Positions 7,305 through 25,987 are shown, counted from the first letter of the stretch. The stretch is 26,031 nt of DNA from Octopus sinensis (GCF_006345805.1 NW_021835646.1:1-26031); one strand, 5' to 3'. Translations and numbers: made by a program. The notes: generated by a model not told the origin, from the letters alone.

Positions 7305-7886
7305 TTTTCATTATAGGCACAAGGACAGAATTTTTTTTTTTTGGGGGGGGGGATTAAGACGATTGCAACGACCCCAGTACTCAACTGGTACTTAATTTAT
7401 CGACCCTGAAAGGAGGAAAGGTAAAGTCACTCTCGGCGGAATTTGAACTCAGAACGTAGCGAAATACCTATTTCTTTACTACCCACAAGGGGCTAAACAT
7501 AGAGAGAACAAACAAGGACAGACATAGGTATTAAGTCGATTACATCGACCCCAGTGCGTAACTGGTACTTATTTAATCGATCCCGAAAGGCTGAAAGGCA
7601 AAGTCAACTTCGGCGGAATTTGAACTCAGAACGTTGCAGCAGACGAAATACCTATTTCTTTACTACCCACAAGGGGCTAAATACAGAGAAGACAAACAAG
7701 GGCAGACAAAGGGATTAAGTCGATTACATCGACCCCAGTGCGTAACTGGTACTTAATTTATCGACCCTGAAAGGATGAAAGGCAAAGTCGACCTCGGCGG
7801 AATTTGAACTCACAACGTAACGACAGACGAAATACCGCAAAGCATTTCGCCCGGCGTTCTAACGTTTCTGCCAGCTCGCCGCCTTA
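7305..7886 (-). mobile_element. tRNA-derived SINE family A, tandem trimer (184-bp period)
   Basis: Minus-strand head ggcggcgagctggcagaaacgttag with B-box-like gagttcaaattcc. The junction motif gaaatacc recurs at 7461, 7645 and 7829, and the body (cgaccc.gaaagg.tgaaaggcaaagtc..ctcggcggaatttgaactc) occurs three times. Confidence 0.9.
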
Positions 7887-8859: not shown

Positions 8860-9216
8860 TTTTATTTTTTACTTGCTTCAGTCATTAGAGTGCAGCCATG
8901 CTGGGGCATCCAATTGAAAATTTTTTAGTCGTACTTATAATATTTTGAAAATCCCAGTACTTATTCTATCGGTGTCTCTTGCCGAATTGCCAAGTTACGT
9001 CTACATAAATACACCAATACCAGTTGTCAAGCTGCGGGGTGGGGCGGGCACACACACACACAACGGGTTTCTTTCAGTTTCTGTCTACCAAATCTACTCA
9101 CAAGGCTTTGGTCGGCCCGGGGCTATAGTTGAAGACACTTACTCAAAGTGCCACGCAGTGGGATTGAACCCGAAGCCATGTGTTTGGGAAGCGAGCTTCT
9201 TACCACACAACCACGC
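8860..9216 (-). mobile_element. tRNA-derived SINE family B, near full length
   Basis: Reverse complement of the 19732-20322 element: acttgcttcagtcattagagtgcagccatgctggggca ... gtgccacgcagtgggattgaacccg...cttcttaccacacaaccac. Confidence 0.9.
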
Positions 9217-11162: not shown

Positions 11163-11352
11163 CCTTTCTAATTTAGGCACCATGCCTGAAATATGAAGGG
11201 AGAGGATTAGTTGATTACAGTGTTTCACTGGTACTTATTTTTATTAACCCCGAAATGATGAAAGCAAAGTCGACCTCGGCGGAATTTGAACTTAGAACGC
11301 CAGACGATCGAAATGCCGCTAAGCACTTTTCCTTACGTGCTAACGATTCTGC
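11120..11352 (-). mobile_element. SINE family A copy with (AAT)n tail
   Basis: (AAT)n, then atcctttcta..taggcac...gcaaagtcgacctcggcggaatttgaacttagaacg...aacgattctgc. Confidence 0.85.
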
Positions 11353-12006: not shown

Positions 12007-12420
12007 TTTTATCAACTGTGAAAGGCAAAGTTGATCACCGCGATATTTGAACTTTGAACGTAAAGAAGCAGAAAGTGTAACGCTGTAACGATTCTACAAA
12101 ACTCTTCGCCTCGAAATAACTGTTTCTAATTTAAAACGCAAGTACTAATTCCGCAGCGAAAGGTATCCCCACGTTCCACTGTACACGAACGTGCTAAATA
12201 TGATTGATCATGATAGTATTTTATTCAATACTGATTCTTGCGATTGTAGTTAAGTTCAGCTTGACCAAGCTTTACACATATCAGCGAAGTACATTATTTA
12301 CATTATTTACATTTGACAGATATTTGTCCTAATCTTGTTTATTGTTAACACAGCGTTTCGGGGAAATTTCGAACCTGGGTTCTCATTCCTAAGGTATTTT
12401 TTGATGCTGTTATTATTATT

Positions 12421-12964
12421 GAGTGAGCGAGCAGAGCATGCCATCAAAGTGACACTGGGGTAAAATATACGAAGCCCAGTATACCCATCATGACTACCCG
12501 TCTGATAAGGGTACACCAGGCACATGCATCACAACCATATGTGCGCGACATGGTGATCTCATATCAAGATAAACAGCACATGACCTTGCAGGTGGAGCCC
12601 AGTTAGAATTTTCTTCAGATCGAGTAACCCATCCCGCTCAAAAGGTCCCTGAATAAGGGTTGTTTAAGGACGTTGAACGAAACACCTATGTTTCCAGAGG
12701 TGAATTATTCAAACCCCAAAGAATCCTTCTCAACACATGGCTATGATGCTCCCCCACTACTTCTGCTCGTGATCAGAGATGCACATATCGTCAGCCACTA
12801 AGGGGCATGCTCAACTGGTTAAGGTCAAACAACTGACAAGCAAATCTGTGGTATTGAGCAGAATATTTGCTGTAGCCCATCTTTTATACCAAGACAAAAC
12901 AATGTACATGATAACATTGAGCAGAATATTTGCTGTAGCCCATCTTTTATACCAAGACAAAACA

Positions 12965-12966
<2 letters not shown>
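12421..12966. mobile_element. Retroelement-like fragment inserted in an (ATT)n tract
   Basis: High-complexity 546-bp block with (ATT)n on both sides, splitting the left arm of the inverted dimer. It has an internal exact 51-bp duplication. Confidence 0.65.
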
Positions 12967-13000
<34 letters not shown>

Positions 13001-13004
<4 letters not shown>

Positions 13005-13075
13005 TCACTGCTTTGAATTGAACTCGGAATCTTGGAGTTAGTAGCCCACGCTCTTAATCACTGCGCCATATGTCC
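13001..13075 (-). other. tRNA-derived head (Pol III A/B boxes); not a functional tRNA
   Basis: Minus strand reads ggacatatggcgcagtgattaagagcgtgggctactaactccaagattccgagttcaattc. A box at 13058-13068, B box at 13015-13025; the cloverleaf stems are imperfect. Confidence 0.7.
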
Positions 13076-13154
13076 GTGGGTATATGACATAGTGGTAAAT
13101 AATAACATCAAAAAGTACCTTGGGAATGAGAACCCAGGTTCGAAATTTCCCCAA

Positions 13155-13200
13155 GACACCTGATGAAGGCTGGAGGGTATATCAGCCGAAATGTTGTGTT
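13155..13200 (+). ncRNA. Minimal type I hammerhead ribozyme motif
   Basis: gacac-CTGATGA-a-ggctg-(gagggtatat)-cagcc-GAAA-tg-TT-gtgtt. Stems I and II and both core boxes are in register. The helix III palindrome aacgtt appears mutated to aatgtt. Confidence 0.75.
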
Positions 13201-13439
13201 AACAACAAACAAGATGAGGACAAATATCCGTCAAATGTAAATCATGTAAATAATTCCTTATCTCTTAAATATAGAACTGTAATATCAGCAAAGGTTCTAT
13301 TTTCTGTTCTTATATATGAAAGGTATTTTTCTTATAGGTTCATAAAACACAAAGTCGGTATCCGTTGCCCCAATCCCTGTTCATAACAACATCATCATCA
13401 TCAACAACAGCAACAACAATAGTAATAAGAAGAAGAATC

Positions 13440-13582
13440 TATTCTTCTGAAATTTGGGGGAGGGGGTAGTCGATTACATCGCCCCCAGTACCCCACTGGT
13501 ACTTATTTCATCGACCTCGAAAGGATGAAAGGCAAACTCGATGTCGGCGGAATTTGAACTCAGAACGTAAAGAACCGCCGGA
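13440..13582 (-). mobile_element. SINE family A copy (5'-truncated)
   Basis: gtcgattacatcgcccccagtac...tcgacctcgaaaggatgaaaggcaaactcg..gtcggcggaatttgaactcagaacgtaaa. Confidence 0.85.
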
Positions 13583-15135: not shown

Positions 15136-15292
15136 ACCTTTACGTTCTGAGTTCAAATTCCGCCGAGGTCGACTTTGTCTTTCATCCTCTGGGGGTCGAT
15201 AAAAGAAGTACCAGTTGAGTACTGGGGTCGATTTAATCGACTTGTCGTCCCCTGCTCCGAAATTGTTGGCCTTGTGCCAAAAGTTAAAACTA
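15136..15292 (+). mobile_element. SINE family A copy (5'-truncated)
   Basis: ttacgttctgagttcaaattccgccgaggtcgactttgtctttcatcctctgggggtcgataaa...ggccttgtgccaaa. Confidence 0.88.
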
Positions 15293-16999: not shown

Positions 17000-17584
17000 T
17001 ACACCTGTCTGTCTTAATGTTATCCTTATTTCTCTGCAGTGCTACAACTCTTCTATTCATCAATAAACAGCCCCTCCCTTGCCTATGTGTGTGTGTGTGT
17101 GTGTGTGTGCCTTTGTCCCTTTATTTCCACCTCACATTTCAACATCTTCCACAAAGACAACCGCCGCAGGCCGACGGCGCTTCTGACACGTGGCTTCGAA
17201 TTACTTGCTCTTTTGTAAGGAGAAACAGGTCGCCGCCGTCTCCCAACAGCTGCATTATCTCTGCATTATAAACTTTAGCCTTACTCCGCCCCGCTTTATT
17301 TACTTATTTGGTATCGTTCTCTCGCCCATCTGTGCCTGAGCATTGAGATGAAGAAAGAAACTGGATCATCGATATAGAAAGGGGAGGAGGAGGTAGGCGA
17401 GAAATTTAAATTTTTGTGTATTTCAGTATTTTAGAAAGGAAAGTATGACAGAACTGTCTTGTTGCCGTTTCCTTCATTTAAATCAATGCTTCTTAATCGG
17501 GGTCCTTATGGCACTTGGGTGGGGTTCCATTCTCTTATTTTTTTTGTTCTTTTACTTATTTCAGTCATTTTGACTGTGGCGAAT

Positions 17585-17931
17585 CTTCAAAGCAAATCAT
17601 GACAGCTGTCTTGTGTATGAGAAGACTGAGGCGGCTTGGGCATGTCAGGAGAAATGATGACCATCGAATCCCGAAGCAACTGCTCTTTGGAGAACTGGTC
17701 CAGGGCAAGAGACCAAGAGGAAGACCAAAACTGAGGTATATGGACACTTGCAAAACTAGTTTGTCCAAGTGTGAGGTGGATGTCAGCACCTGGGAAGAGA
17801 GGGCTGAGGAGAGAACAACATGGAGGACTGTGGTGAAGGAAGGAACTGCTTCGCTGGAGAGCAGCTACAGAAACAAACAAGTTGAGAAGCGTCAGCAGCG
17901 AAAGGGAAGCAGCAGAAATGCAGAGCACTGA
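17585..17931 (+). pseudogene. 3' fragment of an RTE-clade (BovB-like) LINE reverse transcriptase ORF
   Basis: RRLRRLGHVRRNDDHRIPKQLLFGELVQGKRPRGRPKLRYMDTCKTSL...WEERAEERTTWR matches the RLRWxGHVxRM..R.PK..LYGEL..GKR..GRP..R.KD...W...A..R..WR signature of RTE C-termini. The N-terminal ~20 aa of the listed ORF come from unrelated repeat fragments. Confidence 0.88.
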
Positions 17932-18599: not shown

Positions 18600-18940
18600 A
18601 TAGGGTTACAGTGGCCCTCCGTCGGTTACGACGATGTGAGTTCCAGTAGATCCGATCAACAGAACAGCCTGATGCTCGTGAAATTAACGTGCAAGTGGCT
18701 GAGTACTCCACAGACCTGTGTATCCTTAATGTAGATCTCAGGGAGATTCAACGTGGCCCCGAATGTGACAAGGCTGGCCCTTTAGAATTACAGGTACAAC
18801 TCATTTTTGCCCGTTGAATGGTCAGTAGCAACGTGAAATAAAGTGCCTTGTCCAAGGACATAACGCGCGGCCGTGAATTGAACTCATGACCATACGATCG
18901 TGAGCCGAAGACCGTAACCATTAAGCCACGTGCCTCCACG
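18600..18940 (-). mobile_element. tRNA-derived SINE family C
   Basis: Minus-strand head gtggaggcacgtggcttaatggttacggtcttcggctcacgatcgtatggtcatgagttcaattc (A and B boxes), followed by gtgtccttggacaaggcacttt-like sequence. Confidence 0.8.
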
Positions 18941-19731: not shown

Positions 19732-19953
19732 GGCGCAGGAATGGCTGTGTGGTAAGAAGCTTGCTTCCCAACCACAGTGGTTCCGGGTTCAGTCCCACTG
19801 CATGGCACCTTGGGCAAGTGACTTCTACCATAGCCTCGAGCCGACCAAAGCCTTGTGAATGGATTTTGGATTTGATCGACGGAAACTGAAAGAACCCCGT
19901 CGTATATGTATGTATATATATATATATATGCACACACACATAAGCATATATAT

Positions 19954-20035
<82 letters not shown>

Positions 20036-20056
20036 ATATGCACACACACACATACC

Positions 20057-20097
<41 letters not shown>

Positions 20098-20322
20098 TGT
20101 GCGTGCGTGTGTATGTGTGTATATGTTTGTGCGTTTGTGCCCCCAACATTGCTTGATAACCGATGGTGGTGTATTTATGTCTCCGTAAGTTAGCGGTTTG
20201 GCAAAAGAGAGGAGATAGAATAAGTACTAGGCTTACCAAGAATAAGTGCTGGGGTCGATTTGCTCGACTAAAGGCGATGCTCCAGCATGGCCGCAGTCAA
20301 ATCGCTGAAACAAGTAAAAAAA
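19732..20322 (+). mobile_element. tRNA-derived SINE family B, full length, with expanded internal (TA)/(TG) microsatellite
   Basis: ggcgcaggaatggctgtgtggtaagaagc (A box), gggttcagtccc (B box), accttgggcaagtg, and 3' end ctccagcatggccgcagtcaaatcgctgaaacaagtaaaa. Confidence 0.92.
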
Positions 20323-20669
20323 TGAGTAATGACTAATATGAACAATTTCCTCTCTCTGACTGCATGGAATGTAAATCTATCAGGAAAAGAACCATTCCAA
20401 CAGATCGCGAAGAAGCTACAAAGAATATTTTAGGTTGAGTTTTTAGATTTAATCGAGTTTCGTTAATATGTCGCGTGCTATTTTTCCATGATCCTCTTTC
20501 GTTTGACCTAGATATTGTATTTTCTGATCTTTCTGATGTCCAAGGATGGATATCGATGTCTCTGAGAGTGTCTTTCAAATGTTACTTTGGAGAACTGAAG
20601 AGGCAAATTTGCTTTATTTCGTCTTACTCATTTTGTGCCACCTAAATTTCTCTTTCGTATGCTCTAAAC

Positions 20670-21181: not shown

Positions 21182-21305
21182 ACTTATTTTATCGACTCCC
21201 GAGCGGATGAGAAGTAAAGTCGACTCCGGCGGAATTAGAACTCAGAACGTTAAATCGGACGAAATGTCGCCAAACATTAGGTTCGGCGTGCTAACGATTC
21301 TGCTA
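21182..21305 (-). mobile_element. SINE family A copy
   Basis: acttattttatcgactcccgagcggatgagaagtaaagtcgactccggcggaattagaactcagaacg...gctaacgattctgc. Confidence 0.82.
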
Positions 21306-21682
21306 AGATCACTCTTTTCAATAAGCTCACAGAACGAGACGCCAGTCCGTCGCAGGGTCGTCGTTTACAGCTGAATAAACGGGAGCAAAGTGAACAGAAG
21401 ACAGGCAGACAGACAGACCGATGGACAGACAGACAAACAGACAAAGAAATAGATAAATAGAGGGAGAGAGAGAGGGGAAATGGAAAGTGAGGGGGAGAGA
21501 TTTAGACCGAGGCTTAAGAGAGAGTTGCTTGACCTCCAAGAAATAGCAGTTAAATTTCCTAACGTTTCTAAAGAAGAAATGTCGTTCTAGGTTTACAAAA
21601 TTACAAAAATGGCCATGGTTGGAATACTTTTGATTATAGGTTTAGAGCTGACCGTCTGCTTGATCCGAGCTGCCTTTAAACG

Positions 21683-24296: not shown

Positions 24297-24625
24297 GTGG
24301 CTGTGTGGTAAGAAGTTTGCTTCCCAACCACATGGTCCCGGGTTCAGTCCCACTGCATGACACCTTGAGCAAGTGTCTTCTAATAAAATCTTGGGCTGAC
24401 CAAAGCCTTGTGGGTAGATTTGGTAAATGGAAACTCAAAGAAGCCTATCGTATATATATATATGTACGATGTGTTTACGTCCCCATAACTTAGCGGTTCG
24501 GTAAAAGAACCGATAGAATAAGTACTAGACTTACTAAGAATAAGTCATGAGGTCAGTTTCTTCACTAAAGGCGGTGCTCCAGCATAGCCTTAGTCAAATG
24601 ACTGAAACAAATAAAAGAATAAAAG
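24297..24625 (+). mobile_element. SINE family B, near full length
   Basis: gtggctgtgtggtaagaagtttgcttcccaaccacatggtcccgggttcagtcccactgc ... aggcggtgctccagcatagccttagtcaaatgactgaaacaa. Confidence 0.9.
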
Positions 24626-24808
24626 TATATATACATATACATATATATATATAGCTCGAAACCTTGTGTGTATATATATAATATATTAATAAATAAAACC
24701 GTCACGTTGAAGTCTGCGCTGCAGAACCGGTCCACGTAAGTCCTATATATATATAAATATATATATAAATGTATGTACGTATGTATGTATGTATATACAT
24801 ACATTCAT

Positions 24809-25520: not shown

Positions 25521-25675
25521 AGGACGGCGAACTGGCAGAATGGTTAGCAGGCTGGGTAAAATGCTTAGCAGCATTTCGTCCGTCTTTCTGTTTTGATGTA
25601 TAATTCCGCTTTCATCCTCTCAGAGCCGATAAAATCAGTACCAGTTAAGTGCTGGGGTCGACGTAGTCGATTTAA
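25521..25675 (+). mobile_element. SINE family A copy, 3' end replaced by the fold-back element
   Basis: ggacggcgaactggcagaatggttagc...ttcatcctctcagagccgataaaatcagtaccagttaagtgctggggtcgacgtagtcgatttaa. Confidence 0.82.
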
Positions 25676-25987
25676 ATCGCCAAAAAAAAACAACACTGAT
25701 AAATACTACAGAAATCACCGGCCGTGAGCAAACGGGCTCGGACAATCTCTCAACATACTTTCAAGTATTAGGACTCACGTGGACCGGTTTCTGGACTGGC
25801 ATTATAGTCTCACCTTCCTCAACACGCGTTCCCATGATGGGAAGCCCCAGCCCGTCACGTTGAAGTCTGCGCTGCAGAACCGGTCCACGTAAGTCCTAAT
25901 TTGAATGTATGTTGAGAGATTGTCCGAGCCTATTTGCCCACGGACGGTTGATTTCTGTAGTTATCAGTGTTTTTTTCGGCGATTTAA
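25672..25987. mobile_element. Long-TIR fold-back element/MITE bounded by TTAA
   Basis: 25672-25793 is the imperfect reverse complement of 25875-25987 (e.g. ggctcggacaatctctcaacatac / gtatgttgagagattgtccgagcc). The spacer is ~81 bp, and ttaa lies at both outer ends. Confidence 0.8.

What the first reader, a model, noticed from the sequence alone, without database searches (positions are those of the whole stretch)
12278..13293. Palindromic head-to-head dimer of a tRNA-headed hammerhead retroelement, apparently integrated as one unit
Seen: combining the two arms reconstructs one ~250-nt monomer made of a tRNA-like head with A/B boxes, (AAT)n, a minimal hammerhead and a tail (gtcaaatgtaaataatgtaaataat). 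The two copies meet head-to-head across a 2-nt axis (ccatatgtcc-gt-gggtatatga, 13066-13087). The whole structure is flanked by a 12-bp direct repeat with one mismatch (12278-12289, 13282-13293). Known: Penelope-like elements carry minimal HHRs and often insert as inverted arrangements, while SINEs have tRNA heads. Inference: this is a Pol III-driven, self-cleaving, Penelope-mobilised SINE/retrozyme hybrid whose insertion product is a palindrome. I do not know whether it has been described.
Basis: partly seen in the sequence, partly recalled or inferred. Interest (0 to 1): 0.8.

Follow-up and report, generated by a model that had tools for sequence, protein, structure and literature searches.

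The report
tRNA-headed Penelope transposon forming hairpin copies
This is one of many thousand back-to-back pairs of the end repeat of a Penelope retrotransposon, unusual because that repeat begins with a tRNA-like segment that may let the element be copied into RNA by the tRNA polymerase, and because the pair likely forms when the DNA copy folds back on a small built-in hairpin.

Summary
The structure is real: two inverted arms, a 2-nt axis and a 12-bp target duplication. It is not a separate SINE/retrozyme. The 'monomer' (tRNA-like head, (AAT)n, minimal hammerhead, tail) is the terminal repeat (pLTR) of an autonomous Penelope-type element in the same genome (2.65-kb unit, RT plus GIY-YIG-type ORF). 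About 25,000 arms are estimated. Of 127 dimers, 88 have target duplications and 118 carry the ~30-nt tail on one end only, as Penelope insertions do. The axis is the element's own TGCCC-AC-GGGCA mini-palindrome, which points to fold-back self-priming. The unusual part is the head. It aligns in register with tRNA A/B boxes. Most copies stop within 7 nt upstream of it (24 of 30), and two near-complete ORF copies also begin there. The sense strand has no T4 run. None of 11 related pLTRs from other organisms has such a head. Pol III transcription is plausible but not shown. Self-cleavage is not shown, and copy ends do not mark the cleavage site. The window copy is damaged: a 546-nt insertion, one hammerhead deleted, one head cut to 19 nt. 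Verdict: new variant of a known kind.

The parts
12278..12289 (+). Left copy of the 12-bp target-site duplication
12290..12406 (-). Left arm, pLTR body without the tail; 35-nt deletion (body columns 49-83, joined at CC microhomology) removes the hammerhead core
12407..12420 (-). Remainder of the (AAT)n tract of the left arm
12421..12966 (-). Later insertion, not part of the family: 5'-truncated copy of an about 560-nt (AAT)n-targeting element, with a tandem duplication of its first 50-63 nt
12965..13000 (-). (AAT)12 tract between head and body
13000..13075 (-). Complete 76-nt tRNA-like head; A-box-like 13058-13068, B-box-like 13014-13025
13076..13077 (.). 2-nt axis (GT on +, AC read toward the complete head); it is the loop of the element's native TGCCC-AC-GGGCA mini-palindrome
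13078..13096 (+). 19-nt head stub of the right arm, followed by a jump into the (AAT)n tract
13105..13254 (+). Right arm, pLTR body (96% identical to the family's commonest letters over 13105-13281); holds the likely start ATG of the Penelope ORF at 13126
13155..13200 (+). Minimal type-I hammerhead motif: stem I 13155-13159 with 13196-13200, CUGAUGA 13160-13166, bulged A, 5-6 bp stem II, GAAA 13188-13191, stem III loop decayed from CG to TG; predicted cleavage after 13195
13255..13281 (+). One-sided Penelope 'tail': the sequence that follows the 5' pLTR into the ORF in full-length copies
13282..13293 (+). Right copy of the 12-bp target-site duplication

Best explanation
The window holds an ORF-less, head-to-head pair of terminal repeats of an autonomous Penelope-type retrotransposon, inserted as one unit, likely made when the reverse-transcribed copy folded back on a 5-bp hairpin at the start of the repeat, and likely templated by an RNA that starts at the tRNA-like head. 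SHOWN: (1) the monomer is the pLTR of a 2.65-kb element with RT and a GIY-YIG-type C-terminus; (2) the axis is that element's own TGCCC-AC-GGGCA; (3) one-sided tail and 8-18 bp duplications; (4) copies break off within 7 nt upstream of the head far more often than anywhere else. INFERRED: (5) an ancestral element captured a tRNA-derived head plus (AAT)n just behind its stop codon, and this head acts as an internal Pol III-type promoter that sets the RNA 5' end 2-7 nt upstream of it (about even odds); (6) the element's RT copies the RNA from the tail end, reaches that 5' end, and the cDNA end GCCC-GT-GGGC(A) self-primes to start the second arm; (7) synthesis usually jumps by microhomology after 10-26 nt, or the perfect palindrome later loses that stretch, so most dimers keep only one full head; (8) the endonuclease resolves the intermediate and leaves the tail on one end, either one; a minority of second arms come from a second RNA. 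The hammerhead travels as part of the pLTR and the ORF start; it is predicted to cleave only weakly and as a dimer, and these copies derive from uncleaved or religated RNA.
For: ORF directly upstream of the head in L230 and most of 30 further loci. 5' pLTR runs through the tail into the ORF (L304, L306, L312, L318). Direct pLTRs on both sides of the ORF in L529, L531, L534. RVT_1 E 1e-9; 141 homologues, nearly all of the 120 listed carrying PF00078 and PF26215, most also PF28514. Native junction 426 exact matches, palindromic axis 328, head start 3,041, tail 10,946. 24 of 30 head-selected copies lose native sequence within 7 nt upstream of the head; L304 and L322, which carry ORF sequence, also start there. 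Tail on one arm in 118 of 127 dimers; duplications in 88 of 127. Subfamily markers agree between arms (column 131: 114 of 117; column 60: odds ratio 12, p 5e-4). L170 has a 22-nt stub joined by TTAA microhomology back into ORF sequence. The head hits a profile of 20 genomic tRNAs in register (model 8-63 on head 8-63, 14.5 bits, E 4e-4). No T4 run in 2,648 nt of sense strand (4.7 expected, P 0.0075 by mononucleotide shuffle). Self-priming at junction palindromes was proposed for rotifer Penelope (PMC3846280).
Against: No RNA 5' end, polymerase or cleavage was measured; only assembled contigs of runs guessed to be RNA were available. The T4 absence is weak: dinucleotide-shuffle P 0.066, G4 runs are absent too, and 6 of 29 related elements elsewhere also have none. 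A TATA-like TTTATAA lies 30-36 nt upstream of the head, so Pol II could set the same start. The tail lies on the fold-back arm about as often as on the template arm (GT 7, AC 11, AT ambiguous 8), which plain target-priming plus fold-back cannot give. Column 60 differs between arms in 12 of 83 dimers (about 1 expected), and in L529 the inverted arm differs from both direct pLTRs. The full head sits on the GT arm in 9 of 26 informative cases (my count). 12 of 16 stub-only copies and 15 of 19 head-start solos lack a duplication, which suggests later deletion. The hairpin is only 4-5 bp.
Confidence: 0.7

Rival explanations
1. Ordinary Pol II Penelope. The RNA is made from the TATA-like box or host promoters. 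The head is a passenger relic of a tRNA-SINE insertion, and the sharp boundary arises because RT stalls and folds back at the mini-hairpin on long RNA.
For: TTTATAA 30-36 nt upstream of the head. D. virilis Penelope has an internal promoter in the pLTR likened to LINE promoters (PMC2377424). L170 suggests fold-back while the template continues upstream. The ORF must be translated, which suits a capped RNA (established knowledge). T4 absence is not rare in relatives.
Against: A 4-5 bp hairpin would have to stop about 80% of cDNAs within 7 nt, while the stronger hammerhead stem II makes no such boundary. A and B boxes are in exact tRNA register and the boundary lies where a tRNA leader would. 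Copies that start at the head have lost the TATA-like box.
Confidence: 0.35
2. First reader's model. Solo pLTRs and dimers act as their own Pol III source genes, a SINE-like lineage moved in trans by the Penelope protein.
For: ORF-less arms far outnumber ORF copies (10,946 exact tail matches against 426 native junctions and 383 candidates for the ORF 5' part). The column-60 A variant is in 58 of 298 ORF-less arms but 2 of 43 ORF-linked 3' pLTRs (p 0.017). Some solos start with the GT polarity of a fold-back arm.
Against: No variant is private to ORF-less copies, and ages are similar. The ORF-linked sample was chosen by likeness to one copy, so the 60A difference may be selection. Only 1 of 5 GT-polarity solos has a duplication, and it is low-complexity. 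Priming at the 5' pLTR/ORF border of full-length RNA would give the same products, tail included.
Confidence: 0.3
3. Twin priming by two RNAs. Each target nick primes its own cDNA, and the two cDNAs join at their 3' ends by microhomology; fold-back makes only the short stub.
For: Arms discordant at column 60 in 12 of 83 dimers (5 of 56 with duplications). L529 inverted arm differs from both direct pLTRs, and inverted segments in L529, L532 and L545 are 3' ends of the element truncated at varied points. The tail can be on either arm.
Against: Independent templates predict about 28% discordance at column 60 (14% seen) and about 12% at column 131 (3 of 117 seen, near the mutation background); this is my arithmetic. 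It may account for a minority of events.
Confidence: 0.25
4. A DNA-transposon MITE with long terminal inverted repeats.
For: Inverted ends and a target duplication.
Against: Ends are asymmetric in 118 of 127, duplication length varies from 8 to 18 bp, about half of the arms have no inverted partner (42 of 90), and the repeat is the terminus of an RT element.
Confidence: 0.02

Closest known systems
Penelope/Poseidon-clade PLEs with inverted pLTRs, e.g. Adineta vaga Pen2a/Pen2/Pen3a (PMC3846280, main text read) and the general PLE plan in PMC8557442 (passages)
   Same: [quoted passage not shown]
   Different: Those pLTRs are described with TATA/Inr-like promoters; here the pLTR starts with a tRNA-derived head and (AAT)n. 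ORF-less pLTR pairs dominate and number in the thousands.
Minimal hammerheads of metazoan PLEs (PMC4209133, parts 1-2 of 4 read)
   Same: Short stem I, bulged base before stem II, palindromic vestigial stem III, predicted dimer-only activity; that paper notes pairs of motifs 100-700 bp apart on opposite strands.
   Different: Nothing in the motif itself. Here it lies in frame within the first 30 codons of the likely ORF, as it appears to in homologue P0008.
Helenus / Ajax / Cassandra (TRIMp3; PMC10886601, part 1 of 6 and passages)
   Same: A tRNA- or 5S-derived sequence built into the terminal repeat of a retroelement and proposed as a Pol III promoter, possibly from a SINE insertion. Closest analogy for how the head works.
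   Different: Those are non-autonomous LTR elements with PBS, PPT and 4-5 bp duplications; this is a Penelope pLTR attached to an autonomous ORF.
Schistosoma SM-alpha / Sj-alpha SINE-like elements (as reviewed in PMC6765202, passages; the original papers were not read)
   Same: Pol III-type promoter followed by a hammerhead.
   Different: Tandem repeats with an active ribozyme that releases monomers; here an inverted pair, a minimal motif, and identity with an autonomous PLE terminus.
Non-LTR retrozymes (bioRxiv 10.64898/2026.07.22.740005, part 1 of 5 and passages)
   Same: ORF-less, hammerhead-bearing, related to PLE pLTRs.
   Different: Defined as tandem arrays with a hammerhead in each unit; no tRNA head is mentioned (0 hits for 'tRNA' in the text).
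Octopus tRNA-derived SINEs OK/OR1/OR2 (Ohshima and Okada 1994; seen only as a citation; the names OK and OR1 are recalled)
   Same: tRNA-derived heads in an octopus-type genome (host group inferred from recalled repeat families, not tested).
   Different: Could not be compared: the paper, Repbase, Dfam and SINEBase were not available. The head may derive from, or be catalogued under, one of them.

Membership tests
EN+ Penelope-like element (Penelope/Poseidon) | Single ORF with PLE-type RT and C-terminal GIY-YIG endonuclease | tested here: met
   RVT_1; homologues with PF00078/PF26215/PF28514; VYSIPC..CG..Y.GET..EH motif in translations. Pfam GIY-YIG itself did not hit L269 at E 0.1. All copies seen are broken.
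EN+ Penelope-like element (Penelope/Poseidon) | pLTRs flanking the ORF, direct and inverted | tested here: met
   L529, L531, L534 direct; L529, L532, L543, L545 inverted
EN+ Penelope-like element (Penelope/Poseidon) | 30-40 nt tail on one end that continues into the ORF | tested here: met
   118 of 127 dimers; continuation shown; length here about 27-35 nt
EN+ Penelope-like element (Penelope/Poseidon) | Minimal hammerhead motif in the pLTR | tested here: met
   Motif scan, fold (z only -1.4); core intact in 210 of 422 arms (the pool includes loci picked by exact hammerhead patterns); no Rfam hit
EN+ Penelope-like element (Penelope/Poseidon) | No Cys-rich linker of Neptune/Nematis; placement in the Poseidon clade | tested here: inconclusive
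   Linker lacks the Cys motif seen in the genome's Neptune-type ORFs; no tree was built
tRNA-derived SINE | tRNA-derived head with A and B boxes | tested here: met
   In-register profile hit, 14.5 bits; 42-47 of 73 letters identical to the best genomic tRNAs, z up to 7.8; no cloverleaf, parent tRNA not resolved
tRNA-derived SINE | Transcribed by Pol III | not testable with these tools
   Indirect only: 5' boundary, no T4
tRNA-derived SINE | Non-autonomous lineage sharing only a 3' tail with its partner | tested here: not met
   The whole monomer, head included, is part of the autonomous element; separate masters are not excluded
Non-LTR retrozyme | Tandem head-to-tail units each with a hammerhead | tested here: not met
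   Inverted pairs or solos dominate
Non-LTR retrozyme | Self-cleavage and circular RNA | not testable with these tools
   No raw reads; copy ends do not pile up at the cleavage site
TRIMp3 (Helenus) | True LTRs with PBS and PPT, 4-5 bp duplication | tested here: not met
   Duplications 8-18 bp; pLTR organisation
MITE | Symmetric terminal inverted repeats and fixed-length duplication | tested here: not met

The most novel reading that the evidence does not exclude
An autonomous Penelope retrotransposon replaced its Pol II promoter with a captured tRNA-SINE head. Its 2.65-kb, T4-free genomic RNA is then made by Pol III, every solo pLTR becomes a potential SINE-like source gene, and a built-in 5' mini-hairpin turns insertions into ADAR-edited palindromes by the thousand. 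It would be the Penelope counterpart of TRIMp3 elements and, unlike them, protein-coding.
Probability: 0.3. Interest if true: 0.8.

Novelty: new variant of a known kind. Interest (0 to 1): 0.55.

Why it matters
The Penelope transposition cycle is described as unresolved (PMC8557442). This family offers thousands of copies with a polarity mark (AC or GT at the axis) that tells the template arm from the fold-back arm. It shows that the tail can end up on either arm, which constrains models of priming and resolution. A tRNA-derived promoter in an autonomous retroelement would extend Pol III capture beyond SINEs and TRIMs. Nine full-text searches of the open library found no such PLE, but Repbase and Dfam could not be checked. 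The pairs are ready-made double-stranded RNA: seven sites show A>G or T>C changes, up to 24% of depth, in two runs guessed to be RNA and at 1.2% or less in two other runs. They may contribute to the high dsRNA and editing reported for octopus (PMC5625713). For annotation, such copies would easily be misfiled as SINEs or MITEs.

Tried and rejected
Rfam and ARAGORN: no tRNA or hammerhead call. The partner was not among 30 top GIY-YIG loci or 5 extended loci, which are mostly Neptune-type families with other pLTRs; it was found through exclusion-pattern loci. The reading frame NIEKYLRNENPGSKFPQDT was first taken for a GIY-YIG end; rejected, because the real ORF uses another frame and ends upstream of the head. 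Column 18 A>G looked specific to the tail arm (10 of 11) but was a selection effect of the query (2 of 33 long arms and 1 of 53 others in unselected loci). Sharing of rare variants between arms: none in excess (1.5% within, 1.1% between; divergence 7.5% both), so no sign of gene conversion. A regex for A/B boxes failed its own positive control and was not used. Pile-up of 5' ends at the hammerhead cut: not found; the few nearby fit the TGTTAACA palindrome. Sequencing runs: no holder on record as RNA, contigs only, so no strand, start or level. Earlier scan notes: nothing found. Two papers (Lunse 2017, Ferbeyre 1998) were not held. No supplements were read; those of PMC4209133, PMC8557442 and PMC13282606 may list this family.

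Full report
OBSERVATION. The window is a whole 26-kb contig of a 2.72-Gb animal genome, rich in microsatellites and repeats, with no long coding frame. I take the host to be octopus-like from recalled repeat families; this was not tested. The left arm has a full 76-nt head, a 546-nt insertion in its (AAT)n, and a 35-nt deletion through the hammerhead. The right arm has a 19-nt head stub, an intact hammerhead motif and 27 extra nucleotides before the duplication.

THE FAMILY. Exact matches in the genome: tail 22-mer 10,946, hammerhead 32-mer 3,412, head start 3,041, palindromic axis 328; reversed controls 0. Dividing by the share of arms expected to match exactly (6 of 48 for the hammerhead; about 0.43 for the tail, my product of column frequencies) gives about 25,000 arms. 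Forty evenly placed 10-kb stretches held 1 insertion, which is compatible. Of the first 90 tail matches, all on one chromosome and a few being two arms of one dimer, 48 have an inverted partner. Pooling all fetched loci, which were selected in several ways, gave 127 distinct dimers with both outer ends: tail on one arm 118, on neither 7, on both 2; duplications scoring 8 or more in 88, length 8-18, mode 12. The control was 41 of 1,406 mismatched flank pairs. Arms differ about 4% from the commonest letters outside CpG, so the burst is old.

WHAT IT IS. Locus L230 showed RT and endonuclease coding sequence running into the head. A search with that DNA gave 3,003 candidates, 40 scored; most of the 30 loci fetched continue through about 33 nt of 3' UTR ending TGCCCAC into the head and body. 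A search with the ORF's 5' part gave 383 candidates; several loci begin with head, body and tail and continue into the ORF. L529, L531 and L534 have direct repeats at both ends. The unit is 2,648 nt. The frame opens at an ATG inside the pLTR, runs through the hammerhead and ends near codon 833, with one frameshift in my majority string. RVT_1 matches. The nearest of 141 homologues are 52-66% identical and unnamed; the best named ones, at 40-45%, come from echinoderms and lizards. P0008 has the same hammerhead-overlapping N-terminus. The monomer is therefore this element's pLTR, and the tail is the start of its ORF, as described for rotifer Penelope (PMC3846280).

THE AXIS. The autonomous element reads ATAATTGCCC-AC-GGGCATATGG (426 exact matches). 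The dimer axis CCATATGCCC-AC-GGGCATATGG is what results if the cDNA end pairs TGCCC with GGGCA and copies itself. Among the first 50 of 328 axis loci, 37 keep exactly one full head, 2 keep both and 11 neither. The 55 short heads listed end 10-26 nt from the axis, often at 2-5 nt microhomologies. The lower limit is set by my pattern, the stub measure was capped at 26, and four arms of 40-49 nt were not listed. L170 joins a 22-nt stub back into ORF sequence, which fits a jump during reverse transcription. Against a purely insertion-time origin: only 4 of 16 stub-only copies have a duplication (control 22 of 240). Both processes probably act.

RESULTS THAT DO NOT FIT SIMPLE FOLD-BACK. The tail lies on the AC arm in 11 and on the GT arm in 7 dimers (8 ambiguous); in the window it is on the GT arm. 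A second arm copied from a cDNA without the tail cannot have it, so either the intermediate carries the tail on both strands and is trimmed at integration, as PMC8557442 suggests, or a second RNA is used. One marker (column 131) agrees between arms in 114 of 117 dimers. Another (column 60) disagrees in 12 of 83, with about 1 expected, and in L529 the inverted arm differs from both direct repeats.

THE HEAD. The commonest letters of 124 heads match the best of 20 fetched genomic tRNAs at 42-47 of 73 positions (Arg, Ala and Cys nearly tied). A profile of those tRNAs hits head 8-63 on model 8-63 (14.5 bits in L024; 8.5 bits, E 0.05, in the window). There is no cloverleaf. Of 30 copies picked by the head start, 24 lose native sequence within 7 nt upstream and 6 continue; genome-wide, 426 native junctions against 3,041 head starts gives about 14%. 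L304 and L322, which carry ORF sequence, also begin there. The sense strand has no T4 run: P 0.0075 (mononucleotide), 0.066 (dinucleotide), 0.03 (synonymous codons). Four Neptune-type ORFs in the genome have 29 in 8.3 kb. However, G4 is absent too, and 6 of 29 related elements from metagenome contigs have none in 1.7-2.3 kb. In 79 related loci the profile found one tRNA-like hit, a separate element upstream of L373. None of 11 relatives with 450 nt upstream of a hammerhead-like motif has a head, and 4 of them show TATA-like words. A TATA-like TTTATAA lies 30-36 nt upstream of our head. Pol III is thus about even odds.

THE HAMMERHEAD. It has the minimal PLE form with a palindromic ACGU stem III (decayed to AUGU in the window copy), reported to cleave poorly and only as a dimer (PMC4209133). 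Intact arms extend about 45-85 nt past the predicted cut, and 5 of 90 5' ends fall at columns 90-95. Cleavage does not define these copies. The core is slightly less changed than other columns (3.0% against 4.2%), but the pool includes loci picked by exact hammerhead patterns.

EXPRESSION. Twenty of 24 listed runs hold half or more of the words; they come from five coded organisms, and none is on record as RNA. In two runs guessed to be RNA, seven sites show A>G or T>C at 1.6-24% of depth, against 0.03-1.2% in two other runs from other organisms. This fits ADAR editing of read-through hairpins but needs matched DNA. ORF sequence is present in runs of three organisms.

COMPARISON AND VERDICT. 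It is a member of EN+ Penelope-like elements by all features tested except formal clade placement. It works like rotifer Pen2/Pen3 in its palindromic junction, and perhaps like Helenus (PMC10886601) in its promoter. It is not a SINE, retrozyme or MITE by the tests listed. Papers seen: PMC3846280 parts 1-4 of 5; PMC4209133 parts 1-2 of 4; PMC10886601 part 1 of 6 and passages; bioRxiv 2026.07.22.740005 part 1 of 5 and passages; PMC2377424 abstract and discussion; passages of PMC8557442, PMC6765202, PMC4758252, PMC13282606 and PMC5625713. Nine searches found no tRNA-headed pLTR; repeat databases and supplements were not seen. Palindromic insertion is known Penelope behaviour. The tRNA-like head and the polarity-marked axis are the new parts. 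New variant of a known kind, interest 0.55.

Noticed in passing
window 12421-12966 (-); L148, L197, L348, L350, L358, L326: An about 560-nt element with a fixed 5' end that inserts into (AAT)n tracts and ends in (AAT)n; hits in 27 fetched loci. Restriction-like endonuclease ORF ends (Dong/R4 type by recall) lie next to it in L326 and L355, so it may be their non-autonomous partner. It often interrupts the pLTR's AAT tract.
   Followed up: partly
window 25672-25987: A second, unrelated palindrome of about 316 nt with long imperfect terminal inverted repeats and TTAA at both ends; looks like a MITE.
   Followed up: no
window 7350-7836, 11218-11352, 13453-13573, 15138-15243, 21182-21307, 25525-25675: Many pieces of one very abundant SINE-like family, including a 184-nt tandem array of 2.7 copies.
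   Followed up: no
window 8865-9214, 19742-20323, 24297-24637, 18873-18909: A second abundant repeat family; four pieces hit the tRNA profile in its B-box half.
   Followed up: no
window 17497-17930 (+): A 144-codon frame resembling the end of an RTE/CR1-type LINE ORF (family name recalled).
   Followed up: no
L183:6286-7228 and L184:337-5581: Neptune-type PLEs of the same genome also form inverted structures: a 227-nt inverted pLTR pair with its own hammerhead, and a 1.75-kb palindrome at 99% identity. Several copies have open frames of about 780 codons, so these families are young.
   Followed up: partly
P0008, P0011, P0039, P0043 N-termini; window 13126-13200: The hammerhead core appears to be read in frame at the start of the ORF in several related PLEs. 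Subfamily changes in this family keep the frame: D/E at the free N7 base, a synonymous change, and a 9-nt repeat.
   Followed up: partly
L215:1391-1744: A pLTR dimer inserted into the ORF of a Neptune-type PLE.
   Followed up: no
L373:1973-2041: A tRNA-like element upstream of a partial PLE ORF in a metagenome contig; no pLTR link was seen.
   Followed up: partly
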